DNA of 64,000 bases. Origin: Escherichia phage slur09. Made by a program: the position numbers and the translations under genes. The notes under the pieces are model-generated. The model worked only from the letters and a program-made list of their open reading frames with translations. It was not told where the DNA came from and made no database searches. Position 1 is the first letter of the stretch. Each line of letters opens with the position of its first letter. This document shows positions 3,713-22,748 of this stretch, in pieces. The DNA lies in sequence record NC_028840.1. The stretch is one strand, 5' to 3'.

Positions 3713-3995
3713 ATTAGTATATCTATTGAAAGGTTCCACTTGCAATCCTTGCAAAATGTTTGAGCCAGTATTTGATAAAGTAGTCAGTGACTATAATTTG
3801 GAAATCCATAAAGAGACTGATAATACAGAATTAATGCAGAAATTTGGTGTGCGCCAAGTTCCTGTAGTAGTTCTGGCGGATCGCTTACCTAATGGTCGAG
3901 TAGAAGCTAATCATATTCTGATTGGACGTCAGCTTCGTAAAGAAACTATGCACGAAGCTATTAAAAATTTCCTGGATGATAATCCAGAGGACTAA
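3705..3995 (+). CDS. thioredoxin/glutaredoxin-like protein
   Basis: 96 aa; C-x-x-C motif CNPC in thioredoxin-like N-terminal context; start overlaps upstream stop. Confidence 0.5.
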   Translation: MSKLVYLLKGSTCNPCKMFEPVFDKVVSDYNLEIHKETDNTELMQKFGVRQVPVVVLADRLPNGRVEANHILIGRQLRKETMHEAIKNFLDDNPED

Positions 3996-4000
3996 TAAAC

Positions 4001-4034
4001 AAAGCCTGATCTTAGCTGATCAGGCTTTTATTTT
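4001..4034 (+). terminator. rho-independent terminator
   Basis: Hairpin AGCCTGATC/GATCAGGCT followed by TTTATTTT. Confidence 0.65.
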
Positions 4035-4036
4035 AC

Positions 4037-4065
4037 TTGCTTTTTGCTAAAAATTTTGGTATAAT
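4037..4065 (+). promoter_or_regulatory. strong T5-type early promoter
   Basis: TTGCTT-N17-TATAAT. Confidence 0.6.
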
Positions 4066-4092
4066 ATTTATATAGATTGATAGGAGGATTAA

Positions 4093-4338
4093 ATGTTAGC
4101 AGAGCAAGCAAAACGTTTAGCTAGAGTTAATAGAGCTGCTCTTCTCAAGAGCCGAAAGAAAACGTATAGATGGGTTAAGCGGAGGATAGTATCTTCTGTC
4201 GAGATTGGAGGTTCTTTTGTACAGCTTAATCGTGACGAAATTAGTTATGAAGCTATAAAAGCCCTCAATAAAGAGGGTTATACTCTCAAACTATCAAATA
4301 ATTATGGTACAACTATTTTAAATGTTATTTGGGAATAA
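4093..4338 (+). CDS. hypothetical protein
   Basis: 81 aa basic ORF with RBS TAGGAGGA upstream. Confidence 0.45.
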   Translation: MLAEQAKRLARVNRAALLKSRKKTYRWVKRRIVSSVEIGGSFVQLNRDEISYEAIKALNKEGYTLKLSNNYGTTILNVIWE

Positions 4339-5491: not shown

Positions 5492-6081
5492 TGAAGGTTA
5501 AATTCTGGTCGGACTTGCACTTAGACCACCCTGGAGCACTACGTTTCCGTCCGTGGTTTAAGAACATGAAAGAGCACGATGAGTATATTCTAGATACTTT
5601 GTCCAAGCATATTGGTAAACGAACAAAACTTATTTTGCTAGGAGATATTGCAGTAGGTCGTGAAGGCCTGGCCAAATTAAAGTCGGTTATCCACAATGTC
5701 CCTAATCAACTCATTATGGGTAATCATGATGCGGAGCGTCAAGGGCTGAGTATTAGGGACTTAGCGGAAGTTTATGACGATATTCAAGCTCTAGGCAAAC
5801 AGACTGGAGGTGGCAAAAAGTTTTGGCTATCTCACTGCCCTTTGCATCCCAATGAACTTCGTGGCAAACTAAATATTCACGGACATGTACATACTACTTC
5901 CCTACGTGATCCACGTTATATTAATGTCTCATTTGAAATGAGTAAAACTCCAATTCCGCTAGAGGATATTGTGTCTGGTAAGTTTACTAGTTATGATAGA
6001 GTAGTTAATTGTACTACCGGCGAAGTATTACAAATAGGGGAAGATGTAGCTGCTGTATTACGTGGCGATATAAATGTCTAA
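5491..6081 (+). CDS. metallophosphoesterase
   Basis: DLHLD, GD, GNHD, GHVH motifs; RBS AAAAGGAG 6 nt upstream of ATG 5491. Confidence 0.65.
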   Translation: MKVKFWSDLHLDHPGALRFRPWFKNMKEHDEYILDTLSKHIGKRTKLILLGDIAVGREGLAKLKSVIHNVPNQLIMGNHDAERQGLSIRDLAEVYDDIQALGKQTGGGKKFWLSHCPLHPNELRGKLNIHGHVHTTSLRDPRYINVSFEMSKTPIPLEDIVSGKFTSYDRVVNCTTGEVLQIGEDVAAVLRGDINV

Positions 6082-6188
6082 GTATATAGCCGAGGCTATT
6101 ATTAAACGAATCATACAAGCGATAGCAATACTTATAATCATTTGTATTACTATTGGCACAGGATTAGGCATTTTAACTAAAAGTTTTA

Positions 6189-6218
6189 TTTGCTAAAATG
6201 CTTAAGTTTCTGTATAAT
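6189..6218 (+). promoter_or_regulatory. strong T5-type early promoter
   Basis: TTGCTA-N18-TATAAT followed by ATAAATT and RBS. Confidence 0.65.
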
Positions 6219-6248
6219 TACTTTATAAATTGATGAGAAGGAATCAAA

Positions 6249-6680
6249 ATGAACAAAGTTGATAAAGCTCTAGTTTTCGCAGCAGCAGATAAGTTTGAAC
6301 AAGTTAAGGCAACTTTCCGAACCTTGTTCCAGTCTTACGTTCAGGATAAGTCTAATCCTATTTCTGAACGCTTGATGGTTTGGGAGTGTCATGCTTGCAA
6401 TGCCCTGCTAATTGCTGATTACCGTAGTGATATAGATAAAGATCTTTGTGAAATCCTTATCCCCAAGGAAGCAGAACGTTATCAGTTAATCTCTTTCCAA
6501 GATTTGGCGGAGCATATCATTCCTGATGATCTTTGGGATAAATACTATGGGGATCCTGAAGATGAAGGAATGACTCCAGAAGCCTGTATTGAGCTGATCT
6601 GCAAAGATCATCCTGAAATTGCGGAGAAATTTGAAAAAGTTTTTGCTTCTGAGTTCTCCGGCGTTGTTAACGATTGGTAA
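6249..6680 (+). CDS. hypothetical acidic protein
   Basis: 143 aa ORF behind promoter 6189-6218. Confidence 0.5.
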   Translation: MNKVDKALVFAAADKFEQVKATFRTLFQSYVQDKSNPISERLMVWECHACNALLIADYRSDIDKDLCEILIPKEAERYQLISFQDLAEHIIPDDLWDKYYGDPEDEGMTPEACIELICKDHPEIAEKFEKVFASEFSGVVNDW

Positions 6681-6697
6681 GTAATTAAAAAATTCAG

Positions 6698-6726
6698 TTG
6701 CTTTAAGCCTTAAAATTCTGTATAAT
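6698..6726 (+). promoter_or_regulatory. strong T5-type early promoter
   Basis: TTGCTT-N17-TATAAT followed by ATAAATT; near-identical architecture to 6189-6218. Confidence 0.65.
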
Positions 6727-6758
6727 AAGTTCATAAATTAATGAGAGAGGAAATTCTA

Positions 6759-7037
6759 ATGGAAAACATGACTAAAGATTTCGACGCCTCTAACCTTACT
6801 AAGACTGAAATGGCCAATGTATTAGCAATTCTCCTCGACATGCAAGGATTTGAGGGGCAACTGATGAAAATGTCTATTCCGGCGATGAAGAAGATGTATG
6901 ATTCTCTTAACAAGAACGCTATGGCCTTTAACTTAGCAAAACAAGAGGCACGCTTTGCTAAGGAGCATCAAGCAGTGGCAGAACGCCGAGCAGCTAGCTT
7001 TGAGCGTGAAGTCAAGCAATTAAAGAAAAAATGCTAA
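6759..7037 (+). CDS. hypothetical protein
   Basis: ORF behind promoter 6698-6726; start chosen at ATG 6759 behind GAGAGAGG (track start 6741). Confidence 0.45.
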   Translation: MENMTKDFDASNLTKTEMANVLAILLDMQGFEGQLMKMSIPAMKKMYDSLNKNAMAFNLAKQEARFAKEHQAVAERRAASFEREVKQLKKKC

Positions 7038-7567
7038 CACAAGAAAGATTAAAAGAGTTATTTGAATACCGCCCGGAAACGGGCGAGTTTATAAGGAAAG
7101 TCAGTAGAGGACGAGGTAAAGCAGGTAGTATTGCTGGTAGTCCTGATAAGGATGGTTATATATTTATTGGGATAAATAGAAAAAGATATGCAGCCCATAG
7201 ATTAGCCTTTTTGTACATGGAGGGGTATATTCCAAATCTAGTACACCACTTAAATAACATAAGAAAAGATAATAGATGGTGTAATTTAAAAGATTGTACG
7301 TCCCAAGAGAATAATCGTAGCAAAATCGCTCAATCTAATTAGGGGTACTTAGGAGTTACCTGGAAAAAAGATCGACAACAATGGAGAGTCCAGGCCAGAA
7401 GCGCCGAAAGCATTACAGTACACGGAGGCTACTTTAGGTACCTAGATTTAGAGTTGGCAGTTCAAAGAGCTAATGAACTACGTTTAGAACTACATGGGCC
7501 TAATGCTGTTATAGAAACTTTTGATCATACAAAACCCTTACCTACTTTAGAGGACTTAAATAAATGA
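7031..7567 (+). pseudogene. HNH/AP2 homing endonuclease interrupted by an in-frame TAG at 7340-7342
   Basis: HNH part (AHRLAFLY...HHLNNIRKDNRWCNL) ends at TAG; same frame continues GYLGVTWKKDRQQWRV...ELHGPNAVIETFDHT to TGA 7565-7567, colinear with the intact paralog at 63556-64000 where Ser occupies the TAG position. Confidence 0.55.
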
Positions 7568-7845
7568 TTACAGAAATTCTCATTGGATTGCTAGTGCTTA
7601 TGACACTAGTAGCGATTGGCGGAGTTATTGGGATTGTGAATGCACGAAAAAGCATGGAAAATATGCTTATTACTAATGATGGACTACACCACCGTTTGCT
7701 AGAGCAAGAGCAGGACATTGAATTAGCACAAAGACGCTCGGATATTCTTAAGGAAAAATTAAATAATATAGAAGCAATAGTTGGGAATAATAAATTACCT
7801 GCTAAAGTAATGCGTACACAGATAATCACGGAGATTAAAAAATGA
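7564..7845 (+). CDS. small membrane protein
   Basis: 93 aa, N-terminal TM helix then coiled-coil-like charged region. Confidence 0.45.
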   Translation: MITEILIGLLVLMTLVAIGGVIGIVNARKSMENMLITNDGLHHRLLEQEQDIELAQRRSDILKEKLNNIEAIVGNNKLPAKVMRTQIITEIKK

Positions 7846-8087
7846 TGATGTTTATTCTAGCGTTTTATTTGATTGTAGTTGGTGTACTGGTTACTAAGTA
7901 CCATACATGGGCACCAAAGAATATAGTTAAGGTAGCACTGTTTGTTATTCCAGTCCCGCTTATTATACTTTCTATGTTACTGGTGATGTTAATCGGTAAA
8001 ATAACAAAAACCGATATTAAACGTATTGCTGATGAATTGCAACAGTCTTGTGATATGGTAGAGGATATTCTTAAAGATGAAGCTTAA
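7842..8087 (+). CDS. small membrane protein
   Basis: 81 aa, two hydrophobic segments; ATGA overlap with upstream gene. Confidence 0.45.
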   Translation: MMMFILAFYLIVVGVLVTKYHTWAPKNIVKVALFVIPVPLIILSMLLVMLIGKITKTDIKRIADELQQSCDMVEDILKDEA

Positions 8088-8403
8088 TTTTAATGAATTA
8101 AATACCTTACATAAGATACTACAGTTTGTGAATAATAATATTAGCATTCCAGATGATACGCTAGAAGTTCTCATGTTAATCGAGAAAAAGGTAGGAATTG
8201 AAATTGAGGACTCCTGGAAACCGCTTTCTGTATTAACACCCCTTAATATGAAAGTGATAGTTAAAAATATCGATACTGGTGAAGAATGTAAGATGATTCG
8301 TAAAGAACTAGCTGATAGCTATTCACCAAAGTCTGTAGTAATGTACCATGATGATACCGCTAAGACTCTACAGACAGCTAATTACGTATGGCGTCTCCCA
8401 TGA
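8077..8403 (+). CDS. hypothetical protein
   Basis: 108 aa ORF. Confidence 0.45.
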   Translation: MKLNFNELNTLHKILQFVNNNISIPDDTLEVLMLIEKKVGIEIEDSWKPLSVLTPLNMKVIVKNIDTGEECKMIRKELADSYSPKSVVMYHDDTAKTLQTANYVWRLP

Positions 8404-8502
8404 TTGATTTAGTACCAATTACTGCGGGGCTAATAGCACTATTAGTGCTTGCAGTTTTTATTATTGTGGAGTAGGCCAAAGTAATAAGGAGACTTAAAAA
8501 CA

Positions 8503-8703
8503 ATGATAAAACGTCTTGTTTATCAGGCACCAAAGATTGTAACTGAGTATTTTGTATTACTGCCTCAGATTGTATTTCTAACAGCATTATTTAATACACT
8601 TTTTCGACATCTAGGAATAACGGAAAATATCTTCTACACTTCTGGGTTACTTCCTTTTATGTACGAAGGCATCATCGTGGCAATCAACGGAGTTCGTAAA
8701 TGA
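8503..8703 (+). CDS. hypothetical protein
   Basis: 66 aa ORF with RBS AAGGAGA upstream. Confidence 0.35.
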   Translation: MIKRLVYQAPKIVTEYFVLLPQIVFLTALFNTLFRHLGITENIFYTSGLLPFMYEGIIVAINGVRK

Positions 8704-9161
8704 CAGCACTACAACAACTACAGAATTACTGGTTTGATAACCAATTTAACGATCTTTTCATCCAGTTGTTTGTCGAAACGAACGGACGCTTCAACTACCG
8801 ATTCTTTAACAAGTTTCACGAAACAAAATTCTCGCATACAGAAATTAATGCAGCGATCCAAGACCTAACTGGTTCTAAAGTAGTTCAATATCGTGAAGTA
8901 GACTTTACACCAGATTGTTTCGGGTTTGAATTGTTTAAGAAAGCATATAAATTTGGTAAGTTTGAGGATGCTCGTCAATGGGTTCATGATTTCTGGTACA
9001 ACACTGATATTGTTCCTAGTCGTGTACTGATTCTTAACTGGATTGCCAAACAACATCCGCCTAAAGCTCAATCGTCCTTCTTACCAACTGATACAGGAAA
9101 CCTCTACCATGACAGAAAAGAAAAATCCATTATTGGAGCAGATGAAGGAGTGGGAGAGTAA
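8700..9161 (+). CDS. hypothetical protein
   Basis: 153 aa ORF, start overlaps upstream stop. Confidence 0.5.
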   Translation: MTALQQLQNYWFDNQFNDLFIQLFVETNGRFNYRFFNKFHETKFSHTEINAAIQDLTGSKVVQYREVDFTPDCFGFELFKKAYKFGKFEDARQWVHDFWYNTDIVPSRVLILNWIAKQHPPKAQSSFLPTDTGNLYHDRKEKSIIGADEGVGE

Positions 9162-9480
9162 TATTGAAACTGGTCTAATAGACGGTGAAGATATTGTCAA
9201 CTCCATGCTAGAAGTAACAGTAGATAACATTAATCCTATTTTGGCTGGAGAAACCTCAGATCTTATAGGACTCTCTAGCACATTTGATTCTTTGGCTAAA
9301 TTAGCTTTAGACGATGAAGAGATAACCAAAGAAGATCTCGCTACAGCTATGAATATGGCTATTAATGCTTACATCGGTAAACGTACTGATGAACTTGGTA
9401 AACAGATCAATAAGCGTGATGCTACGCTAGGTCTTATGGAAACGGCCACTATGTTAAGAAGTGGTAAACAACTTCATTAA
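9142..9480 (+). CDS. hypothetical acidic protein (start uncertain)
   Basis: Track ORF 9043-9480; ATG 9142 has GGAG 5 nt upstream; alternative ATG at 9109. Confidence 0.4.
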   Translation: MKEWESNIETGLIDGEDIVNSMLEVTVDNINPILAGETSDLIGLSSTFDSLAKLALDDEEITKEDLATAMNMAINAYIGKRTDELGKQINKRDATLGLMETATMLRSGKQLH

Positions 9481-9486
9481 TTTTAG

Positions 9487-9517
9487 GAGGCCAGGACTTA
9501 GTTGTTCTGGCCTTTTG
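9487..9517 (+). terminator. rho-independent terminator
   Basis: Hairpin GGCCAG/CTGGCC followed by TTTT. Confidence 0.5.
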
Positions 9518-9540
9518 AGTACATATAAAAGGAGACTATA

Positions 9541-9774
9541 GTGGAAATTGTATTAATTATTCTTGCAATAGCACTATTATTTGCAATCAGCATATCTATT
9601 AAAAAGACTCGTGATCTTAATAGGACTATAGATGATAACAGAAAACTACGTGGTGAAAAGGCTAGGCTTAACCTACAGCATGAAGCTCTGAAGTTATTTG
9701 TAGTTCAGGGCAATAGAAACCATACTCCTGAAGATTTTATTAAACAGCTTAAAAAGCACTTAGGGCTCAAATAA
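9541..9774 (+). CDS. small membrane protein (GTG start)
   Basis: 77 aa, N-terminal TM helix; RBS AAAAGGAG upstream. Confidence 0.4.
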   Translation: MEIVLIILAIALLFAISISIKKTRDLNRTIDDNRKLRGEKARLNLQHEALKLFVVQGNRNHTPEDFIKQLKKHLGLK

Positions 9775-9959
9775 TGGAAACTCTTTTTCTTTTAATGCTC
9801 GTAGGTTCTCTGTTACTAATACTAGCACTTCTACTAATCTGCAACATTCTTAACAACAAGAATCTAGAGTTAAAGTGCGAAAACCAAATCCTTAATCGTG
9901 AACTTAAACAATATAATCTAGCAGCACATAAACTGTTAGACAAACTGGAGAATAAATAA
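9774..9959 (+). CDS. small membrane protein
   Basis: 61 aa, N-terminal TM helix plus coiled coil. Confidence 0.4.
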   Translation: METLFLLMLVGSLLLILALLLICNILNNKNLELKCENQILNRELKQYNLAAHKLLDKLENK

Positions 9960-10570
9960 TGTTTACACAACAACCTATTCAAGTAGTACCAGACCATGAA
10001 CTGAACACATGGGATTATAGCTTTAAAGATTTAACTGCTACTATACAATTCAAATCTATGAAGCTAACATTTGCACACACTGACCTTAGAGCATGTAAAG
10101 ATCTTGAAGGTAAGCTCGAAGATGCTCGTAAGATTTTTGGCACGGCTCGCATCCCGGCTGATAACCTGATTAATGCACTGATCGATGCAGGATACAAACT
10201 AGTGAAGGCTGAGGTTAACCGTCCTAGTACTCCTGTAACTATTAGAGATCCGTGGCAGTCAGGGACAATCTCAATGCTGAGTAACTCCGATAAAAGGTTA
10301 ATGTCGGATATGCACAATGTTCCTTGTGGGGGTGTGGTAAGTAGTACGAAGTCATATAAGTTTGGGGAAGATTACGGCCCTTCTGTACAGTTGAAACATA
10401 CTCAAGAAGCTTTTGAATCTGATATGCGAAGCGTAGCACCTGCGGATGCTGAAGGTTTTAAAAGTCCCCTCTATGTTACTCACTTTAATAATCTTAGACC
10501 TGGGAGTATAAGTGATACTATCCTTGAAGCGTTGGGAGCTGCTATTAATGAAGATAAGAGGGGTAATTAA
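9959..10570 (+). CDS. hypothetical protein
   Basis: 203 aa ORF, RBS GGAGAA. Confidence 0.5.
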   Translation: MFTQQPIQVVPDHELNTWDYSFKDLTATIQFKSMKLTFAHTDLRACKDLEGKLEDARKIFGTARIPADNLINALIDAGYKLVKAEVNRPSTPVTIRDPWQSGTISMLSNSDKRLMSDMHNVPCGGVVSSTKSYKFGEDYGPSVQLKHTQEAFESDMRSVAPADAEGFKSPLYVTHFNNLRPGSISDTILEALGAAINEDKRGN

Positions 10571-12073: not shown

Positions 12074-12516
12074 AATCTCATAGATTAAAAACATCAACTT
12101 GTTTTTACCTCTAGGCCGTAGATTTACATCATTCCTCGTAGGAAAACACTTGATGACGGTTCTGCTCGCAGGTTCTCGTCAATTGTTCTTCCACACCGAG
12201 ACTTAGGAGGATGTATCAAATCGCACGCGCCTAGAGGGGCTAACTCTCATGAAATGGGGGTATATTTACTTTTAAATAACTAAAAATATTTAAAGGCAAT
12301 ATCTGTGTTCAAGATGATACACCTGTTGCCGCTCTTCTGCTAGGATGGCACAACACTTTTCTAGAAACTCCAGAGTTCTCACGAAATACTCACCCTTTCT
12401 AGGGCGGTTCTCCTAAGTTTCCAGGAACATATACTAGGCGGTTTAATACAGGGCGGTTATTGGGAGGGGGGTTATTTCTATAAGACATTTTTCCAAAACA
12501 CATTTCCAGAAATTAC

Positions 12517-13117
12517 TGTCGGATTTGCACACTGACATAAGTTTAAAAACTGGTCGGATTTGCACAATGACAGGAGTCTCCTAAGTTTTTAGGAACGCTG
12601 AAAATGGCAGCATTATTTCGGGCCGAAGGCCCATGATTGCCTGAGTTTTTAGAGCCACAGAAATTTTCACTTGTCAAGCTATTTTGCCCCATTTAGCTAA
12701 TAAAATTTTACTTTTTCTGCACTTATCTCAAATTAACCCAAATCTTCTCAACTCTTCTCCAAAATCCCCGCAAATCAGGTGCTCCGCACCAAACATGCGC
12801 CCCTCTCGCAGTTCCCCCAAGTTTCTCTCGATCTCTCATCCTCTCCTCAAACCCATACAATCACACACCCTCCAATCGAAGTCACAAAAATCTTGTCGGA
12901 TTCGCACATCTTAATCCTAGAAAAACCGTGTCGGATTTGCACATATCCCACAGGATTCGAACGCAGTTCGTGATTGCTGGAGTTTTTAGGAAAATTCATT
13001 GTCGGATTCGCACACTATAAAAATTTTTCGGGTCGGATTTGCACACTACCAAAAATTGTCGGATTTGCACATACACGCCCACGCGTAATCCAGGGGGGCA
13101 AATGTCGGTTTTGCACA
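12517..13117 (+). repeat. eight direct copies of 15-mer (T/G)GTCGGATT(T/C)GCACA
   Basis: Copies start at 12517, 12552, 12894, 12929, 13000, 13031, 13057, 13103, all same orientation, in loose pairs; region also holds TCCTAA-N4-TTAGGA palindromic motifs at about 12410 and 12580. Confidence 0.85.
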
Positions 13118-13120
13118 AAA

Positions 13121-13142
13121 GCGCAGGGCAATTGCCCTGCGC
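13121..13142. repeat. perfect 22-bp palindrome GCGCAGGGCAATTGCCCTGCGC
   Basis: Read directly; sits right after the last 15-mer copy. Confidence 0.9.
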
Positions 13143-13149
13143 TAAATAC

Positions 13150-13335
13150 GAATGATAATAAGAATCATTCTCATTTAAAAAGCGGAATGAGAATGATAAT
13201 AATTCGCATTTAGAAAGTGAAATGAGAATTATTCAGGAAGTGAAACGATTCTCATTTAAAAAGTGAAATGATTATTAGTTAGATAGTGAAATGCGAATGA
13301 TACTGATTTGCATTCAAGAATGGAAGTGAGAAACA
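13150..13335 (+). repeat. short degenerate tandem repeats of type AGTGAAATGAGAAT
   Basis: About six units (gcggaatgagaatga, agtgaaatgagaatt, agtgaaacgattctc, agtgaaatgattatt, agtgaaatgcgaatg, ggaagtgagaaacac) read by eye. Confidence 0.6.
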
Positions 13336-13347
13336 CTGTTATTTAAG

Positions 13348-13430
13348 TTATCCACAGACTTATTAACAGCACGATTTGACTTGACAGAATCCTAGCCATT
13401 TTGAGGCGTTATTAACAGACTTATCCACAG
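13348..13430 (+). promoter_or_regulatory. two exact DnaA-box 9-mers TTATCCACA
   Basis: 13348-13356 and 13422-13430. Confidence 0.5.
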
Positions 13431-13438
13431 CTTATCCT

Positions 13439-13458
13439 ACTGTATAAATATACAGTAT
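13439..13458. promoter_or_regulatory. LexA-box-like palindrome TACTGTATAAATATACAGTA
   Basis: CTGT-N8-ACAG with AT-only spacer and TA flanks; one spacer difference from my recalled SOS-box consensus TACTGTATATATATACAGTA. Confidence 0.45.
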
Positions 13459-13822
13459 TCCTACGCAGTGAATAATTCTAATATAGCGTTAAAACGTCCT
13501 AGATCGCATTCTAACGCGTTTAATTTTGGTGGGGATACTAAAACACGGGCAAAATTGGAGGAGGCTTGAAAATTAGTTAGCACGCTAACGATCACACAAG
13601 GCGACACGTAACACCCTAACCATTAGCAGGCTAACCATCGCGGGCGCGGTCAAATGAGAATGATTCTCATTTGAGAATTGGGGCACTTCCTGATAGTTGC
13701 GCCCCGTGATTATTATAGTAGTGGGCAACCGTTACGCTTTGCCCACTCCCGCCACTCATCTTGATGCCTAGACTTGCGACGGCGTACTAAAAACCGCTTG
13801 TACCAGTGATTAAACCATCGTT

Positions 13823-14026
13823 TCATAAATCCTCCTCCGGTAGTCGATGCGTGATCTTCTCCTCTTCCCCGTAGGAGTCTACCAAATGCTGATAATAACC
13901 ATCGTGATCATAAATCACTTTATCATACTCGCCACGCTCGACCGCTTGTCGGTTTTCCGGCGTATCAGGCACATAAAAAACGTCTACCGTTGTGGTAGTT
14001 TTGGTTACAACAATTTTATTGCTCAT
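13823..14026 (-). CDS. small acidic protein, unknown function
   Basis: 67 aa ORF, acidic C-terminus (GEEEKITHRLPEEDL). Confidence 0.45.
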   Translation of the reverse strand: MSNKIVVTKTTTTVDVFYVPDTPENRQAVERGEYDKVIYDHDGYYQHLVDSYGEEEKITHRLPEEDL

Positions 14027-14041
14027 ACTAACGCTCCGTTA

Positions 14042-14149
14042 TTAAAAATTACCGTATATTCCCGGCCAAATTTTACTAGTAACATAAGTTACTATTCCTG
14101 CCGTAATTATGCTGTAAACTACTAACAAGATAAACATTAAACCAGACAT
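14042..14149 (-). CDS. 35-aa hydrophobic membrane peptide
   Basis: Hand-translated MSGLMFILLVVYSIITAGIVTYVTSKIWPGIYGNF; RBS GGAGG upstream; below track length cutoff. Confidence 0.4.
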   Translation of the reverse strand: MSGLMFILLVVYSIITAGIVTYVTSKIWPGIYGNF

Positions 14150-14174
14150 AATACCTCCTCGTAAATATATAATC

Positions 14175-14519
14175 TCATTGCGCCACCTTTCGAAACGCTG
14201 TTTCAATACTATCCGCAGTGGATTGAATATACGCGCCTTTCATTATCAGGCGCTCAGTGCATACTTTGCGGAAAATATTAATAAAATCATCTTCATTTTC
14301 TGCAATTAATGCTTCACCCATAACTTGAACGTCACAAGATGCAAAAGTCAAAAATTGAAATGCTAGTTCACGGGCAACGACCGCATTAATTTTATAATGC
14401 GCCTTGCCCTCATAAATATTAATAACGCCCTTATAAGCTGGGGAAAGCTGATTTAAATAGTTTGCTAATAATGCCGGACGGCAATTAGCAACAAAGCGAT
14501 TGCCTTCATAAATAACCAT
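14175..14519 (-). CDS. hypothetical protein
   Basis: 114 aa from ATG 14519, translationally coupled to upstream gene (TAAaATG); track extends to 14558. Confidence 0.45.
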   Translation of the reverse strand: MVIYEGNRFVANCRPALLANYLNQLSPAYKGVINIYEGKAHYKINAVVARELAFQFLTFASCDVQVMGEALIAENEDDFINIFRKVCTERLIMKGAYIQSTADSIETAFRKVAQ

Positions 14520-14520
14520 T

Positions 14521-14733
14521 TTATAGCACCCCACGAAACGCAGCGTAAAAGGTGGCAAAGTGTTTAACCGTTTCAGCGATCACGTTGCCGCGCTTATCAA
14601 ATTTTTTCTCAGTAACACGAAAGGCATTTTTATTACGTGCTACATATTCGATTCTACAATCTTCCCGCTCGAACGTGTTAACATCCACCAGCTTAAAGCC
14701 TTTCGAACGTGCAAGAGAAACGTTGCGGATCAT
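14521..14733 (-). CDS. hypothetical basic protein
   Basis: 70 aa ORF; start immediately after stop of membrane peptide. Confidence 0.45.
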   Translation of the reverse strand: MIRNVSLARSKGFKLVDVNTFEREDCRIEYVARNKNAFRVTEKKFDKRGNVIAETVKHFATFYAAFRGVL

Positions 14734-14735
14734 TT

Positions 14736-14885
14736 TTATTCCCCTTTACTAGTCATGCAGCCCAGCAGATAAGAAAATACAGCGATACCCGCGCCGATAA
14801 TAACCGCGTGAACGCCGAAAGCTATTGCAAATAATGATAAAATAGCGCCCAAGATACCTGCTAGAATAGCTCGAAAAATAACCAT
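14736..14885 (-). CDS. 49-aa hydrophobic membrane peptide
   Basis: Hand-translated MVIFRAILAGILGAILSLFAIAFGVHAVIIGAGIAVFSYLLGCMTSKGE; RBS AGGAGG upstream. Confidence 0.45.
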   Translation of the reverse strand: MVIFRAILAGILGAILSLFAIAFGVHAVIIGAGIAVFSYLLGCMTSKGE

Positions 14886-14934
14886 TTGTGATAGCCTCCT
14901 AGTTATCGGGGGATATAATATCCCCCGCTATTAA

Positions 14935-15165
14935 TTACATTAAAACAATTTTTGCCGCTTGTTTTTTGGTACAGTGTTCCGCTTTCAGGGTATCCAGTAA
15001 AAAGCCAGCCGTTTGCTGATCGATTTTATCAGCGTTATATAGTTCCTGAATGGTATTATAAGTTTTAGCAATGCCGAACTCCTGCACCATTTCATATATG
15101 ACAGCGCGATTAGATACCCAACCTTGAGCGGTAAACAGATGACTAGCAGAAGAATAAGCAACCAT
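14935..15165 (-). CDS. hypothetical protein
   Basis: 76 aa from ATG 15165 behind GGAGGC; track ORF extends to 15243. Confidence 0.4.
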   Translation of the reverse strand: MVAYSSASHLFTAQGWVSNRAVIYEMVQEFGIAKTYNTIQELYNADKIDQQTAGFLLDTLKAEHCTKKQAAKIVLM

Positions 15166-15228
15166 TTTAAGCCTCCAAATTTTTGGGAAAATTTTCAATC
15201 CACCGTTTTGGTGTAAAGGCATTATAAC

Positions 15229-15256
15229 AAAAAAGGCCGCCATAAAAGGCGACCTT
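15229..15256 (-). terminator. rho-independent terminator (minus strand)
   Basis: Hairpin GGTCGCC/GGCGGCC followed by T-run on minus strand. Confidence 0.5.
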
Positions 15257-15270
15257 TACAAAACTTTACA

Positions 15271-15765
15271 TTAAACTACCTGTAAGGATTCAATATTGAA
15301 ACATCGTTTCAATTCGTCATGCAAAACAGCGTATTCATCCCATCGGGTACTATCAGGAATATAAACAAGCTGCTTTAACCGGTTTGCATATATTACCGCT
15401 TTGTTATCAATTATCTCGACGCCACCATGTTTAATAATTAATTTTATGACGGAATTAATAGGATCGCCGCCGTTTACATATGTGCCGGATTTACTTAACT
15501 GATAATGATAAAGGCTTGCATATACGTTTTCATTTTCATACCATTCGCCCGATTCCTCGTCCTCATAACCGTCACTACCAAAACGAGAAGCGTTATCAAT
15601 AGCCATTTCATGAGCGAAAGCGTCCAGATCACAACCAGCGGGAACAAAGTGTTCCTCCGTCCAACCTTCTCCGCAATAACCAGTATGACAATCGACCAAA
15701 ATGATCATATCATGTTTTGCCGTGCTCACTTCTCCCAGTGAGAAGCCATATTTTTCTTCTGGCAT
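15271..15765 (-). CDS. strongly acidic protein, unknown function (anti-restriction candidate, inferred)
   Basis: 164 aa from ATG 15765 behind AGGAGG; about 29 Asp/Glu versus 12 Lys/Arg by hand count. Confidence 0.5.
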   Translation of the reverse strand: MPEEKYGFSLGEVSTAKHDMIILVDCHTGYCGEGWTEEHFVPAGCDLDAFAHEMAIDNASRFGSDGYEDEESGEWYENENVYASLYHYQLSKSGTYVNGGDPINSVIKLIIKHGGVEIIDNKAVIYANRLKQLVYIPDSTRWDEYAVLHDELKRCFNIESLQVV

Positions 15766-15829
15766 AATTAGCCTCCTATTAATTAACAAGGGAATAGTAA
15801 AGCGGGGTAATAATCCCCGCTTAGTATTA

Positions 15830-16822
15830 TTACTCGCTTTCGGTGTTAGTTGTAAAAGTAGAAATATCGATACCTTTTACCATTTCATCAATCATCTCAG
15901 CGATGTTAAAACTTTGTACCATTTCCAGCATTGCCGCTTCCATAGCCGCTCCTGCTACCGCTTTCGCTTTCTGGTTATTTGGGGCGTACTGGTCAACCGC
16001 TACACTCAGCAGGTTAGCGATCACTACTCGACCGATAGGCGTATCAATATAACCTTTAATCATAAATGGCGCTTTTTTAGCCACTACTTTCGTGATTTGA
16101 GTTAGTGCAATTTTACCCGCTTCCAGTTTTGCAGCGTTTACAACAGCGGATTTATTAGCGGCAACGATGTTAGCAATCTTGGTCATGGTGTTTTTTCCTT
16201 TGTTTTCAGTAGTTTGAGTGTTAACGCTTTGAGTGTTAGAATTTACAGTATGTTTTTCTATACTGTCAATAGGCTGATTTTCATCTTTCCAGAACGTAAA
16301 GCCGGCTTCTTCTATCAGATCATTATAAACATACGGGCATAATTCCGACGGTAGCAAAAAATTACCGTTATCATCAAAAGCCATTACAGCCGCAAAACGA
16401 TACCCGTGATAATCTGACTTATTCCACCCAAGTGATAAATAACGCCAAAATGAATCGAGAAAATTTTCTACGTCATAAAGATCTTTATCATAAGCCTCAT
16501 AGTTTTCTATTGTGAAAACTTCTAAGCCCGCCCCAGCATCATAGGCTTTTACTGTATTGCCTTTTACTATGATAAAATCAGCATCCGGCCCCCGACTAGT
16601 AAGCAAGTGGGACTCCTGATTATATAAAACAAGCGTTGCCCCTTGTTTATATAACGGTAGAAAACTATTCATATTATAAGCATCATAATCATCAAAAAAA
16701 TTATGATGAATAGTTTCAATATTGAAAACAAAATGTTTAATGCTGGTTGTCCTGCTACCGTCCAGCAGGTTGCGCAATGCACCTTTTAAAACGGTAGCGT
16801 TATCAGGTTTATAAAGCCTCAT
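15830..16822 (-). CDS. hypothetical protein (largest gene of cassette)
   Basis: 330 aa; RBS GAGGGGGG; N-terminal Tyr/Asp-rich half and Ala/Val/Lys-rich C-terminal half; no recognisable motif. Confidence 0.5.
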   Translation of the reverse strand: MRLYKPDNATVLKGALRNLLDGSRTTSIKHFVFNIETIHHNFFDDYDAYNMNSFLPLYKQGATLVLYNQESHLLTSRGPDADFIIVKGNTVKAYDAGAGLEVFTIENYEAYDKDLYDVENFLDSFWRYLSLGWNKSDYHGYRFAAVMAFDDNGNFLLPSELCPYVYNDLIEEAGFTFWKDENQPIDSIEKHTVNSNTQSVNTQTTENKGKNTMTKIANIVAANKSAVVNAAKLEAGKIALTQITKVVAKKAPFMIKGYIDTPIGRVVIANLLSVAVDQYAPNNQKAKAVAGAAMEAAMLEMVQSFNIAEMIDEMVKGIDISTFTTNTESE

Positions 16823-17086
16823 TTGTTGGCCCCCCTCGTTAATCGGTGAGTGAATGATATAGATATTTGTTCACTAGGGGCAAGAAAAAAGAAAATGTTT
16901 TTTATTCCTTGCCTAGCGCCTATTTTTATGATAGCCGCGCAGCGGTGTAATAAAGAGCAAAACACGGCGAAGCCACCAGGCCGTCGCATTGAGGCTTTGC
17001 TTTAGTATTACCTAACAGCGTTTAGCTCGTTAGAATGCGATTTAGGCCGCTTAAAATTGATTGCAGTCGTTAACACTACCTTTTTA

Positions 17087-17106
17087 CCCTGTATATTTAT
17101 ACAGTA
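17087..17106. promoter_or_regulatory. LexA-box-like palindrome CCCTGTATATTTATACAGTA, upstream of minus-strand cassette
   Basis: Inverted copy of 13439-13458; about 265 bp upstream of the start of 15830-16822. Confidence 0.45.
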
Positions 17107-17114
17107 GGATAACC

Positions 17115-17196
17115 TGTGGATAAGTCTGTGCAAAAGTTCTTATATCGCCGCCTATCATGTCAAGCCAAAAAGTGCTGTGGATAACTTTGTGGATAA
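17115..17196 (-). promoter_or_regulatory. three exact DnaA-box 9-mers (TGTGGATAA on plus strand)
   Basis: 17115-17123, 17176-17184, 17188-17196; further near-matches at 17448-17456 and 17473-17480. Confidence 0.5.
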
Positions 17197-17937
17197 CTTA
17201 AATGATAGTGTTTCTCACTTAGGCTAATGATTTCTTATAGTTATTATTTCTCATTAATTTATATGTATATAATATATTATGTAATAGTTAGTTGGCTAAT
17301 GAGATTTTCCGTGATTAATAGTCTGCTATTAATTCAGGCCGTTACAATCCACCAGCATGACCATCATCCTAGCAATTATTAGTCTGCTATTCTTCCAATA
17401 CACACTAGCAAATAAAAGTCAATTAATTTATTTTATAAAATAAGTAGTTATCCACTGGAAAATAAAAGTCAAGTGGATAACTAGGAAAATTTCATTTTTG
17501 CTTTGGGGATAAGTTATCAACAAGGCTAGAATGCGCCTAAAACGCTCCAGAACGCGATAAAGTTTTAGGCCATCCCATCATAAGGGGATAGGCCGTTTAT
17601 CGCTACCACGAGCTTTTTAGATTTTGTCAAGTAGGGCAAAGCAAATATAAATGAAAAAATTACTTGCCTATCTGCTTTGTTTTGTGGTATTCGCGCGCCC
17701 GTTTCTTTTAATTTTAATGCGCCGTGCCCAGGTCGCCGCACGGTGTCCGGTGGCGTTTGTCTTTACGTTTCTTTACAAAAATAAGGTTGCGCCATTTTCG
17801 GGAATCCCCTATTATTTATCACGTAGGGCGGCAATGACGAACTACACGGCGGGAAGTTTACCGCCACGCTCTTTAAAAATTGGGTATATCTTAAAGCCTA
17901 TCGGCGGTAAACTTATTTATTATAAGGAATCGACGAT

Positions 17938-18722: not shown

Positions 18723-19130
18723 ATGACTAACGTTAAAACCGCAAAATTCGCATGGAATGAAGAAAACACTCAAAAAGCTGTTTCCATGTATCAACAGTTA
18801 ATCAATGAAAACGGTTTAGATTTCGCAAATAGCGACGGCCTGAAAGAGATTGCAAAAGCAGTAGGCGCGGCTTCCCCTGTATCCGTTCGCTCAAAATTGA
18901 CCAGTGCAAAAGCCTATCAAAAAAGTGATAAGCCTCGTAAAGTTGGCGGCGGTAGCTCTGTGCGTAAAGCTCACTATGTGCGCGTTATTGCTAAACATGC
19001 TATCGATTCCGGCATTATTAAAGACGCCGACGATCTGGCAAGTCTGGAAAGTGCAAAACTTGAAACGCTGGACGCAGTAGCGCAACTGTTAGGCGTTGCC
19101 GATGAAGTAAAACAAGCCGCAGGCGAATAA
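18723..19130 (+). CDS. hypothetical pre-early protein
   Basis: 135 aa; preceded by AATCCCTTAAAT...GGAG leader motif and hairpin 18638-18667. Confidence 0.5.
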   Translation: MTNVKTAKFAWNEENTQKAVSMYQQLINENGLDFANSDGLKEIAKAVGAASPVSVRSKLTSAKAYQKSDKPRKVGGGSSVRKAHYVRVIAKHAIDSGIIKDADDLASLESAKLETLDAVAQLLGVADEVKQAAGE

Positions 19131-22013: not shown

Positions 22014-22748
22014 ATGAATAAAGCTATCATTAATTCTTTCCGTGCTTTCCCGCAAATATCCCGCGTCATGATTTGGGATTTAGACGGCACTATCATTAAT
22101 TCTTTCCATCGTGTAGCGCCTTGCTTTGATAGTGAGGGCAATTTAGATTTAAATAAGTATAAAAATGAAGCCTGTAAACATGATTTAATAATGCAAGATA
22201 CCTTGCTACCGCTTGTTGTTTATATGCGTGAGTGTATGAATGATGTAAATACACTAAACATTATTTGCACCGCTCGACTAATGAGCAAATCAGATTATTA
22301 CTTCCTACGCAAACAAGGCTTGCGCGGTCGTGGTAATAGCAATATCCGCGTATTTTCCCGCGATACACTGCATAAATACTTTGAAGCTGATAAGGTTAGC
22401 GAAATATATCACAGCAAAGACGCAGTATATAAAAGTTATTACTTTGAACTATTTAAACAGTTATATCCTAACGCTGATTTTACGATGATTGATGATCATA
22501 AAGGTGTATTAGCGGCGGCGGCATCATACGGATTTAAAACGCTGGACGCTCAAGCTATTAACGATATTCTATCAATCGGTGTTGCAATGATAGGTGAAAC
22601 CTTTATTGATGAATCCCTCGATGATGATAATGATTATCAATTCCTAGCTGACCGCTTAAAGCTATGCTGGGAAGGTATGACCGAGGAAGAACGCGCAGAA
22701 TATAGTTGCAGCCCGCAACAATATATTGAGAAATTAAAAGTTGCGTAA
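22014..22748 (+). CDS. dmp: 5'-deoxyribonucleotidase (HAD-like), Dmp-like
   Basis: 244 aa; HAD motif I VMIWDLDGTII near N-terminus; size matches recalled T5 Dmp. Confidence 0.6.
   Translation: MNKAIINSFRAFPQISRVMIWDLDGTIINSFHRVAPCFDSEGNLDLNKYKNEACKHDLIMQDTLLPLVVYMRECMNDVNTLNIICTARLMSKSDYYFLRKQGLRGRGNSNIRVFSRDTLHKYFEADKVSEIYHSKDAVYKSYYFELFKQLYPNADFTMIDDHKGVLAAAASYGFKTLDAQAINDILSIGVAMIGETFIDESLDDDNDYQFLADRLKLCWEGMTEEERAEYSCSPQQYIEKLKVA

What the first reader, a model, noticed from the sequence alone, without database searches (positions are those of the whole stretch)
13316..17225. Minus-strand pre-early cassette bounded by ~200-bp inverted repeats carrying LexA-box-like and DnaA-box motifs
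Eight minus-strand genes (13823-16822) sit between two imperfect inverted repeats (13316-13530 and 17010-17225). Each arm holds a CTGT-N8-ACAG palindrome with AT-only spacer (13439-13458, 17087-17106) one spacer base from my recalled SOS-box consensus, plus exact DnaA-box 9-mers. The right-hand palindrome lies about 265 bp upstream of the first cassette gene, so host LexA or DnaA could gate expression of this block, or the repeats could mark an acquired or invertible segment. None of the eight proteins has a recognisable function. I recall DnaA boxes being noted in T5 terminal repeats but cannot confirm that LexA-like sites or this repeat architecture have been described.
Basis: partly seen in the sequence, partly recalled or inferred. 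Interest (0 to 1): 0.65.

Follow-up and report, generated by a model that had tools for sequence, protein, structure and literature searches.

The report
T5 injection-stop repeats carry LexA sites
The two inverted repeats are the already-described DnaA-box repeats of the T5-phage terminal repeat (one lies in the "injection stop signal"). Each also carries a near-perfect binding site for the host SOS repressor LexA that is conserved across the whole phage family and that I could not find described anywhere.

Summary
Window 12.4-17.6 kb is the reverse complement of kb 5.2-10.6 of a T5-like terminal repeat. The arms (13324-13523 and 17021-17220; 193 nt, 72.5% identical) are the published IRD'-spacer-IRC' (injection-stop region) and IRC-spacer-IRD repeats. 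Their eight DnaA boxes are also published (Davison 2020, citing 1987 and 2005 work), so the architecture is already known.

The CTGT-N8-ACAG palindromes are not ordinary AT-rich palindromes. Scored against 18 verified E. coli SOS boxes, they have heterology index 0.74 and 3.97. recA scores 5.2, and the next best site in the 64 kb scores 8.1. About 1e-5 and 2e-3 such sites are expected by chance.

The box next to a DnaA-box pair recurs in T5, in 539 GenBank records, and in Klebsiella, Pectobacterium, Proteus and Vibrio relatives. It is the longest invariant block in a 10-lineage alignment.

It is not placed as an operator for the cassette. It lies about 205 bp upstream of the gene-011 promoter's -35, and the other copy lies beyond the operon's 3' end. 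No inversion is seen among close relatives.

Most likely the arms are host-factor (DnaA plus LexA) landing pads on first-step-transfer DNA. I found no paper describing the LexA site, but two key papers were unavailable.

The parts
13324..13523 (.). Left arm: ortholog of T5 IRD'-spacer-IRC', the repeat inside the injection-stop-signal (iss) region
   Evidence: It is 92.7% identical to T5 NC_005859 about 9338-9550, which lies inside the annotated iss 9140-10149.
17021..17220 (.). Right arm: ortholog of T5 IRC-spacer-IRD (Repeat Region 2), lying between the divergent pre-early operons
   Evidence: It is 73% identical to T5 6098-6300 and 72.5% identical to the left arm.
13438..13457 (.). LexA-operator-like palindrome TACTGTATAAATATACAGTA at the cassette-proximal end of the left arm
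   Evidence: HI 0.74, the best site in the window. 1.3e-5 such sites are expected. It is conserved family-wide.
17087..17106 (.). LexA-operator-like palindrome CCCTGTATATTTATACAGTA at the cassette-proximal end of the right arm
   Evidence: HI 3.97, the second-best site in the window. It is present but more degenerate in relatives, HI 3.5-6.6.
13348..13368 (+). DnaA box pair: TTATCCACA, gac, TTATTAACA
   Evidence: The 3-bp-spaced pairs are as described by Davison.
13409..13429 (+). DnaA box pair: TTATTAACA, gac, TTATCCACA, 8 nt from the LexA-like box
17115..17135 (-). DnaA box pair: TGTGGATAA, gtc, TGTGCAAAA, 8 nt from the LexA-like box
17176..17196 (-). DnaA box pair: TGTGGATAA, ctt, TGTGGATAA
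13326..13337 (+). Conserved outer-end motif GTGAGAAACACT; the inverted copy is at 17207-17218
   Evidence: It is invariant in all four arms of the window and T5, and present in the Klebsiella and Proteus relatives, with a one-base variant in Eos.
13498..13518 (+). Conserved inner motif CCTAGATCGCATTCTAACGCG; the inverted copy is at 17027-17047
   Evidence: (pair I2). Related CTAGA..CG motifs flank the box in distant relatives.
16854..16883 (-). Sigma-70 promoter of the cassette (TTGCCC-18-TATCAT), orthologous to the T5 promoter upstream of gene 011
   Evidence: One search finds the site. T5 annotates a promoter at 6411-6489, which describes as experimentally characterised. The 81% alignment of window 16831-17009 to T5 6308-6484 places it here.
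15830..16822 (-). Cassette gene 1, a 330-aa DUF7566 protein (T5.011 homolog)
   Evidence: Pfam PF24450, E 6e-113.
13823..15765 (-). Cassette genes 2-8: 15271-15765, 14935-15165, 14736-14885, 14521-14733 (T5.014-like abasic-site nicking endonuclease), 14175-14519, 14042-14149, 13823-14026
12518..13314 (.). Remainder of the non-coding iss region: eight GTCGGATTTGCACA direct repeats (DRD) and AATGAGAAT..ATTCTCATT palindromes
   Evidence: It corresponds to Davison's Repeat Region 3.
18723..19130 (+). A2 gene (pre-early DNA-binding protein), used as the anchor for fetching related loci

Best explanation
The two repeats are the known IRC-spacer-IRD and IRD'-spacer-IRC' elements of the T5-family terminal repeat. 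The second lies in the injection-stop-signal region, within the last ~300 bp of DNA to enter the cell in the first transfer step. They are not a recent duplication. Each arm is a conserved array of short motifs: GTGAGAAACACT, two 3-bp-spaced pairs of DnaA boxes, a consensus-strength LexA operator 8 nt from the inner DnaA pair, and a CTAGA..CTAACG motif.

Proposed mechanism: when first-step-transfer DNA enters an uninduced cell, resident host DnaA and LexA dimers occupy these arrays. This builds two nucleoprotein complexes that bracket the variable pre-early cassette. One sits at the pause point of DNA transfer. The other sits near the place where an older experiment saw a second, shorter transferred fragment. 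The arms therefore act as cis-acting architectural elements of the two-step transfer and pre-early programme. They are not an SOS operator switching the eight genes, and not a flip-flop switch.

Shown: identity with the published repeats, motif content, statistical significance, family-wide conservation, and position relative to promoters. Inferred: LexA and DnaA occupancy (I put LexA binding at about 0.7) and the architectural or pausing role (about 0.35).
For: Identity:
- 92-93% nucleotide identity to T5-like terminal repeats at kb 5.2-10.6, on the minus strand.
- The arms map onto T5 6098-6300 and 9338-9550, the latter inside the annotated iss.
- The literature describes the 131-bp IR pair, the eight DnaA boxes in 3-bp-spaced pairs, the variable distance of 1.85-4.26 kb, and a shear point at about 9618.

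LexA site:
- HI 0.74 and 3.97 on a matrix built from 18 E. coli SOS boxes (PMC3009722). The training sites themselves range from 0.27 to 9.3.
- Chance expectation is 1.3e-5 and 2.3e-3.

Conservation:
- Both boxes are present in nearly all of 40 IMG/VR T5-like loci and in T5 itself.
- The 63-nt module of DnaA pair plus box occurs in 539 GenBank phage records (1212 places); in 11 of the 12 records listed no feature is annotated under the match.
- It is also present in Klebsiella Sugarland-like phages, Eos, Pectobacterium My1, Proteus Novosibvirus, and Vibrio D386, Achelous and KIT04, whose A2 proteins are only 38-66% identical.
- In a 10-lineage alignment, 15 of the 29 invariant columns fall in the 19-column block CTACTGnATAnnnnTACAG.
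- The variants seen (CTGG, CCAG, CTGTAC, central 4 nt free) are those tolerated in real SOS boxes. Per-position information content correlates with the E. coli profile, r = 0.82.
- Proteus phages, which lack the second DnaA array, still keep the second box.

Other:
- Rhoades's two FST bands at about 9.6 and about 5.8 kb coincide roughly with the two arms.
- Orthologous arms are more alike than paralogous arms (92.7% versus 72.5%), so motif-level selection rather than gene conversion maintains the repeat.
Against: - No binding data exist. LexA and DnaA occupancy are inferred from sequence only.
- Proteins bound to DNA that is already inside the cell do not obviously stop further entry, so the link to pausing is conjecture.
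- From my own knowledge, not checked here: T5 plates on recA strains, in which LexA cannot be cleaved. LexA removal by the SOS pathway therefore cannot be required for second-step transfer.
- The A2-side box is degenerate in some relatives. One half-site is mutated to CTTG in L003, L011, L014 and L028, and HI is 6.6 in L004. That copy at least is under weaker constraint.
- All known hosts of the family share the same LexA motif, so covariation with host LexA specificity could not be tested.
- A phage protein recognising the same palindrome is not excluded.
Confidence: 0.6

Rival explanations
1. Classical SOS operator. LexA bound at the palindromes represses the eight-gene cassette, or another promoter inside the arms, and expression rises when LexA is cleaved.
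For: - The site quality equals the strongest chromosomal operators.
- A promoter-like site, TTAACA-16-TATATT at 17070-17097 (+), overlaps the right box, and a weaker one, TATACA-16-AATAAT at 13449-13476 (+), overlaps the left box.
- In Vibrio relatives a sigma-54-like element sits just upstream of the module, which would put the boxes at about +5 to +35 of a transcript.
- One cassette gene is a DNA-nicking enzyme.
Against: - The known cassette promoter (T5 gene 011) maps about 205 bp from the right box, and the left box lies beyond the operon's 3' end.
- The overlapping promoter-like hexamers are not conserved in T5, read directly from the alignment. The scan finds no more promoter-like sites in the region than shuffles do (23 versus 17.6 +/- 4.5).
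- Pre-early genes are known to be expressed immediately in uninduced cells.
Confidence: 0.1
2. The palindrome is the target of a phage pre-early protein. This could be A2 binding, or A1 cleavage as in Davison's 'restriction-site' model. On this reading its likeness to the SOS box is incidental, or reflects competition with LexA.
For: - A1 and A2 are the only factors known to be needed to restart transfer, and A2 binds DNA.
- Davison proposes cleavage at one of the palindromes of this region.
- The invariant block extends one base beyond the LexA 20-mer: a C precedes TACTG.
Against: - The palindrome stays at the host LexA consensus while A2 diverges to 38-43% identity. A site co-evolving with a phage protein would be expected to drift.
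- Its variation pattern mirrors LexA tolerance.
- A2 has no Pfam or PDB sequence match. Its AlphaFold model (pLDDT 84.6) is all-helical with no significant fold hit and no LexA-type winged helix.
Confidence: 0.2
3. The repeats are recombination substrates. The cassette would be an invertible or exchangeable module, and the motifs are conserved because they serve recombination.
For: - The arms are inverted repeats flanking the most variable coding region of the terminal repeat.
- The DUF7566 gene lies in the opposite orientation in Sugarland-like phages (37% identity) and in My1.
- Davison notes oppositely read ORFs in Types 2 and 3.
Against: - The orientation is the same in all Tequintavirus and Epseptimavirus loci examined and in 135 collinear GenBank matches.
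- No recombinase is found among the eight products.
- Paralogous arms are only 72.5% identical and show no concerted evolution.
- In the inverted lineages the neighbouring genes are unrelated, so this is replacement rather than a clean flip.
Confidence: 0.08
4. The palindromes are chance AT-rich palindromes inside ordinary conserved non-coding DNA.
For: The region is AT-rich and full of repeats and palindromes.
Against: - The expected numbers are 1e-5 and 2e-3.
- They are the two best matrix hits in 64 kb, with a gap to the third at HI 8.1.
- They persist in lineages whose flanks no longer align.
Confidence: 0.02

Closest known systems
IRC-spacer-IRD / IRD'-spacer-IRC' inverted repeats and injection stop signal of phage T5 (Heusterspreute 1987; Wang 2005; Davison 2015; Davison 2020, bioRxiv 10.1101/866236)
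   Same: Same element: position in the terminal repeat, about 131-nt core, inverted orientation, DnaA and DnaA* boxes in 3-bp-spaced pairs, a variable cassette between the arms, and 92.7% identity of the iss-side arm to T5.
   Different: The published descriptions I could read name palindromes (palC, palD and others) and DnaA boxes, but contain no mention of LexA or SOS. In the window the A2-side arm has all four DnaA boxes, whereas T5 lacks one.
LexA (SOS) operators of Gammaproteobacteria, including those used by mobile elements (colicin operons, CTX-phi, coliphage 186 tum, GIL01). The mobile-element examples are from my own knowledge.
   Same: A 20-nt TACTGTAT-N4-ATACAGTA palindrome, with HI within or better than the range of verified operators.
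   Different: It sits in a strictly virulent phage and does not overlap a mapped promoter. It is paired at a fixed 7-9 nt with DnaA boxes, is present as two inverted copies kilobases apart, and one copy lies in a DNA-transfer pause region.
DnaA-box clusters such as oriC and datA
   Same: Closely spaced multiple consensus 9-mers, the resemblance noted by Davison.
   Different: No replication role is expected. The T5 origins are mid-genome and replication genes are not yet inside the cell at this stage. No AT-rich unwinding element was looked for.

Membership tests
T5-family IRC-spacer-IRD / IRD'-spacer-IRC' repeats (iss element) | Lies in the terminal repeat of a T5-like genome, with one arm between the A2-side operon and gene 011 and the other in the long non-coding region at the FST/SST border | tested here: met
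   collinear with T5 6098-6300 and 9338-9550, and the A2 gene lies 1.5 kb beyond the right arm.
T5-family IRC-spacer-IRD / IRD'-spacer-IRC' repeats (iss element) | An inverted pair with a core of about 131 nt, separated by 1.8-4.3 kb of variable coding DNA | tested here: met
   132-nt arms with 3633 nt between them. One search gives the published range.
T5-family IRC-spacer-IRD / IRD'-spacer-IRC' repeats (iss element) | Two pairs of DnaA or DnaA* boxes per arm, with the boxes of a pair 3 bp apart | tested here: met
   pairs at 13348/13360, 13409/13421, 17115/17127 and 17176/17188.
T5-family IRC-spacer-IRD / IRD'-spacer-IRC' repeats (iss element) | Acts in cis to stop DNA transfer after about 8% of the genome | not testable with these tools
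   This needs blender-shear or qPCR transfer assays. It has not been shown experimentally even for T5.
LexA (SOS) operator | CTGT-N8-ACAG palindrome with an AT-rich spacer, scoring within the range of verified operators | tested here: met
   HI 0.74 and 3.97, against 0.27-9.3 for the 18 E. coli sites.
LexA (SOS) operator | Occurs more often or scores better than chance, and is conserved | tested here: met
LexA (SOS) operator | Overlaps the -35 to +1 region of the promoter it represses | tested here: not met
   the right box is about 205 bp upstream of the cassette promoter's -35, and the left box is downstream of the operon. The overlapping promoter-like hexamers are weak and are not conserved in T5 (read).
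LexA (SOS) operator | Bound by LexA, with the target de-repressed on RecA-mediated cleavage | not testable with these tools
   This needs gel-shift, footprinting, ChIP and lexA mutant hosts.
Invertible DNA segment (Hin/Gin/Cin-type switch) | A site-specific recombinase encoded in or next to the segment | tested here: not met
   no recombinase family among the eight cassette proteins or the six neighbouring small proteins.
Invertible DNA segment (Hin/Gin/Cin-type switch) | Both orientations found among close relatives or within a population | tested here: not met
   a single orientation in all close relatives. The opposite orientation of one gene appears only in distant subfamilies.

The most novel reading that the evidence does not exclude
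A consensus-strength LexA operator, hard-wired 7-9 nt from a DnaA-box pair, is a defining and functionally required part of the injection-stop and pre-early control element of all T5-like phages (Demerecviridae), from Escherichia to Vibrio phages. Host LexA occupancy, not only DnaA, would then help set up the paused first-step-transfer complex or couple it to the cell's SOS state. That would be a use of LexA by a strictly virulent phage in a non-promoter, DNA-transfer context.
Probability: 0.3. Interest if true: 0.8.

Novelty: new member of a known kind. Interest (0 to 1): 0.5.

Why it matters
How T5 stops DNA entry after 8% of the genome and later restarts it has been open for more than 50 years. 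Recent papers still call the mechanism poorly understood and the role of the repeats untested. The only current molecular proposal rests on the DnaA boxes.

A second host-factor site in the same element gives a concrete handle that is cheap to test, using lexA(Def) and lexA(Ind-) hosts, box mutants and LexA ChIP on arrested first-step DNA. That site has the strongest LexA score in the window, and it forms the longest invariant block of the element across phage lineages whose A2 proteins are only about 40% identical. If LexA does bind, it would also add a virulent phage to the list of mobile elements that co-opt LexA, in an unusual non-promoter setting.

If LexA does not bind, the finding reduces to a re-observation of repeats described in 1987-2020.

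Tried and rejected
1. JSS1_004 lead. An mBio 2025 paper mentions a phage protein binding the recA and lexA promoters. The protein has a kinase plus shutoff architecture, and I judged it unrelated to T5 A1/A2, so I dropped it.

2. A2 as a LexA-like winged-helix protein. It has no Pfam or PDB sequence hit. The AlphaFold model is all-helical, and the best Foldseek E-value is 0.8. Not supported.

3. A host origin for the arm. blastn at word size 11 against 5,426 complete E. coli genomes found no match.

4. Concerted evolution or gene conversion between the arms. Rejected, because orthologous arms are more similar than paralogous ones. The central AA/TT flip of the palindrome between phages remains a curiosity.

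5. A clean inversion of the whole cassette in the Sugarland-like lineage. Only the DUF7566 gene is shared. The equally long 164-aa neighbours are unrelated.

6. Fur boxes in the iss palindromes. Matches of at least 14/19 number 7 in the window against 4.3 expected, which is not significant overall.

7. T7-like transcription-driven DNA pulling, gated by a LexA/DnaA roadblock. Not adopted, because from memory T5 transfer was reported not to need metabolic energy. No minus-strand promoter-like site lies just inside the left box either.

8. Literature access. The Davison 2015 review (PMC4743489) is not held, and I could locate neither Heusterspreute 1987 nor Wang 2005 through the paper tools, so an earlier mention of a LexA-like site there cannot be excluded. 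MG030347 turned out to be Proteus phage PM135 in a different permutation and was not used.

Full report
**What the window is.** Megablast of window 12400-17600 finds 535 phage records, all T5-like. The best is 92.7% identical, and records that start at the left end match at about 5.2-10.6 kb on the minus strand, under features annotated 'left terminal repeat'. The region is therefore the reverse complement of the inner half of a T5-type terminal repeat, that is, first-step-transfer (pre-early) DNA. Against T5 itself (NC_005859), blastn places the pieces as follows:
- the window's left flank at T5 9534-10436;
- the left arm at 9338-9550, inside the annotated 'injection stop signal' 9140-10149;
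- the cassette at 6487-9279 (genes T5.011-T5.017);
- the right arm at 6098-6300;
- A2 at 3727-4134.

**Check of the observation.**
- The inverted repeat is real: 132-nt arms at 13324-13455 / 17089-17220 (80% complementary) plus 35-nt arms at 13489-13523 / 17021-17055. Together these form 193 collinear, ungapped positions at 72.5% identity.
- The palindromes are TACTGTATAAATATACAGTA (13438-13457) and CCCTGTATATTTATACAGTA (17087-17106).
- Exact TTATCCACA 9-mers occur six times in the 64 kb where 0.73 are expected, and five of the six are in the arms.
- Eight minus-strand ORFs lie between the arms. Seven have PHROG families, all of unknown function except one. The 70-aa protein from 14521-14733 is the homolog of the T5 'endonuclease nicking abasic sites generated by host Ung'. 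The 330-aa first gene is DUF7566.

**What is already known.** Davison's 2020 preprint, citing Heusterspreute 1987, Wang 2005 and his 2015 review, describes exactly this architecture:
- a 131-bp IRC-spacer-IRD at 6022-6152 and its inverted copy IRD'-spacer-IRC' at 9332-9462;
- eight DnaA or DnaA* boxes 'always in pairs separated by 3 bp';
- a cassette of variable length (1851-4258 bp) and poor conservation between the arms;
- a calculated shear point at about 9618;
- an older report of a second transferred fragment of about 5.8 kb, close to the other arm.

The repeats, the DnaA boxes and their presumed link to the injection stop are therefore not new. That text contains no occurrence of 'LexA' or 'SOS'. 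Five full-text searches combining T5, T5-like, Tequintavirus or Demerecviridae with LexA or SOS box found nothing relevant (and the failed). Recent papers still call the repeats functionally untested. I could not obtain the 1987 or 2005 papers or the 2015 review.

**Are the palindromes LexA sites?** I built a heterology-index (HI) matrix from the 18 E. coli SOS boxes listed in Table 4 of PMC3009722.
- The left palindrome scores 0.74 and the right 3.97.
- The training sites range from 0.27 (umuD, sbmC) to 9.3; recA scores 5.2 and lexA 4.9.
- The next best site anywhere in the window scores 8.1.
- Exact convolution under the window's base composition gives 1.3e-5 expected sites at HI <= 0.75 and 2.3e-3 at HI <= 4.0 in 64 kb on both strands. 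The best site in 60 Markov-simulated windows had HI 5.28 at best, median 9.9.

**Conservation.** I used A2 as an anchor, so that sampling did not depend on the box, and fetched 40 IMG/VR loci.
- Nearly all have both boxes. T5 itself has TACTGTATAAATATACAGTA at 9409 and CACTGTATAAATATACAGGG at 6211.
- The 63-nt module of DnaA pair plus box occurs in 539 GenBank records (1212 places); in 11 of the 12 records listed no feature is annotated under the match.
- Distant Demerecviridae whose A2 is only 38-66% identical carry a CTGTAT-N4-ATACAG box 7-9 nt from a DnaA-box pair (or, in D386, 16 nt from a single box), usually at two places. These include Klebsiella Sugarland-like phages, Eos, Pectobacterium My1, Proteus phage 2 and its relatives, Vibrio phages D386, Achelous and KIT04, and further 85-128-kb IMG/VR contigs.
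- In a 10-lineage alignment of the iss-side arm, 15 of the 29 invariant columns form the block CTACTGnATAnnnnTACAG. This is the longest invariant run, longer than any in the DnaA boxes.
- The substitutions seen (CTGG, CCAG, CTGTAC, a free central tetranucleotide) are those found in genuine SOS boxes. Per-position information content correlates with the E. coli profile at r = 0.82. This figure is descriptive only, because the lineages are not independent.
- Proteus phages, which Davison classes as lacking IRC/IRD, still keep a second box without DnaA boxes.
- The A2-side copy is less constrained. One half-site is CTTG in several genomes, and that arm is only 73% identical to T5's, against 92.7% for the iss-side arm.

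**Does it gate the cassette?** T5 annotates a promoter at 6411-6489 just upstream of gene 011, which a 2026 preprint describes as experimentally characterised. Its ortholog in the window is TTGCCC-18-TATCAT at 16883-16854 on the minus strand, preceded by an A/T-rich stretch. The right box lies about 205 bp upstream of that -35, with the DnaA boxes further out. The left box lies 365 bp beyond the last stop codon. Neither position fits repression by promoter occlusion. Promoter-like hexamers that overlap the boxes exist (17070-17097 +, 13449-13476 +). They are weak, the right-arm one is not conserved in T5 (read from the alignment), and the region has no more such sites than shuffles do. I therefore rate the classical operator reading at about 0.1.

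**Is it an invertible or acquired segment?**
- In every Tequintavirus and Epseptimavirus locus examined, the cassette pieces keep the window's order and strand relative to A2, although genes come and go. For example, the 164-aa gene 15271-15765 is present only in some.
- No recombinase is encoded.
- Paralogous arms are less alike than orthologous arms, so there is no sign of ongoing exchange between them.
- Over deeper time the region has been rearranged. The DUF7566 gene is on the opposite strand in Sugarland-like phages (37% identity, E 1e-42) and in My1. Its neighbours there are unrelated, so this is replacement rather than a flip. This agrees with Davison's remark on Types 2 and 3.

**Could a phage protein be the ligand?** A1 and A2 are needed to restart transfer, and A2 binds DNA. 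However, A2 has no Pfam or PDB sequence relative. Its AlphaFold model (25-sequence alignment, pLDDT 84.6) is all-helical, with no significant structural match and no LexA-type winged helix. A site that stays at the host consensus while the candidate phage protein drops to about 40% identity argues for a host ligand whose specificity is itself conserved across Gammaproteobacteria (that last point is established knowledge). I keep this rival at about 0.2.

**Most likely mechanism.** The arms are composite landing pads for host proteins that are already present when the DNA arrives: DnaA at the paired boxes and a LexA dimer at the inner end. They bracket the variable pre-early cassette, and the iss-side copy occupies roughly the last 160-290 bp to have entered at the pause.

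Shown: identity, motifs, statistics, conservation and geometry. Inferred: occupancy (LexA about 0.7) and an architectural, pausing or insulating role in two-step transfer (about 0.35).

Points against:
- Proteins bound on the inside do not by themselves explain a stop.
- From my own knowledge, T5 grows on recA hosts, so LexA cleavage cannot be needed for restart.
- The A2-side box is dispensable in some genomes.

**Verdict.** The structural part of the finding re-observes a published element. The LexA-like site is real, highly non-random, family-wide and, as far as I could search, undescribed. It adds a cheap, testable handle on an old open problem. Interest 0.5.

Noticed in passing
Related loci L042, L094, L116, L117, L130, L173, L100, L046, L090 (positions listed); none in the window: Sigma-54-type elements (TGGCA[CT]-N5-TTGC) are strongly over-represented around the DnaA/LexA modules and pre-early ORFs of Vibrio-type and Pectobacterium-type T5-like phages. 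There are up to 6 per 11-18 kb, against about 0.05 expected. None occurs in the window, T5, or the Klebsiella, Eos or Proteus loci. In Achelous, KIT04 and L117 one sits about 11 nt upstream of the first DnaA box of the iss-side module.
   Followed up: partly
window 22620-22639: TGATAATGATTATCA is a perfect Fur-type 7-1-7 palindrome and matches 17/19 of the Fur 19-mer consensus. It lies near the dmp end of the terminal repeat. The iss palindromes (13154, 13189, 13655) resemble Fur boxes at 14-16/19, but the window-wide count of such matches is not above chance.
   Followed up: partly
window 12518-13118: Eight direct repeats of GTCGGATTTGCACA (the published DRD repeats) straddle the end of the terminal repeat. 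Each contains ATTTGCACA, an 8/9 match to the DnaA-box consensus, and the copy at 13109 is an exact TTTTGCACA.
   Followed up: no
window 13326-13337 / 17207-17218 and 13498-13518 / 17027-17047: Two further motifs are shared by both arms and by T5's arms: GTGAGAAACACT at the outer ends and CCTAGAnCGCnTTCTAACG at the inner ends. CTAGA..CG-type motifs also accompany the LexA-like box in Proteus, Pectobacterium and Vibrio relatives. No ligand is known.
   Followed up: partly
window 13438-13457 versus relatives: The central dinucleotide of the palindrome switches between AA and TT among phages, and independently in the two arms. This converts the core into its own reverse complement. It is neutral for a symmetric dimer such as LexA.
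   Followed up: no
window 15271-15765: A 164-aa pre-early gene (phrog_6741, function unknown) is present in only a subset of close relatives and absent from T5.
   Followed up: no
L039 5322-6287; L046 about 9525-10487: The DUF7566 (T5.011-like) gene is the only cassette gene for which I found a homolog in the Sugarland-like and My1 lineages (nucleotide blastn of cassette pieces), where it lies in the opposite orientation relative to A2.
   Followed up: yes
window 61050-61069: TTCTGGATAAGTATACAGCT is the third-best LexA-matrix hit (HI 8.1). About 0.2 such sites are expected by chance, so it is probably fortuitous. Its conservation was not checked.
   Followed up: no
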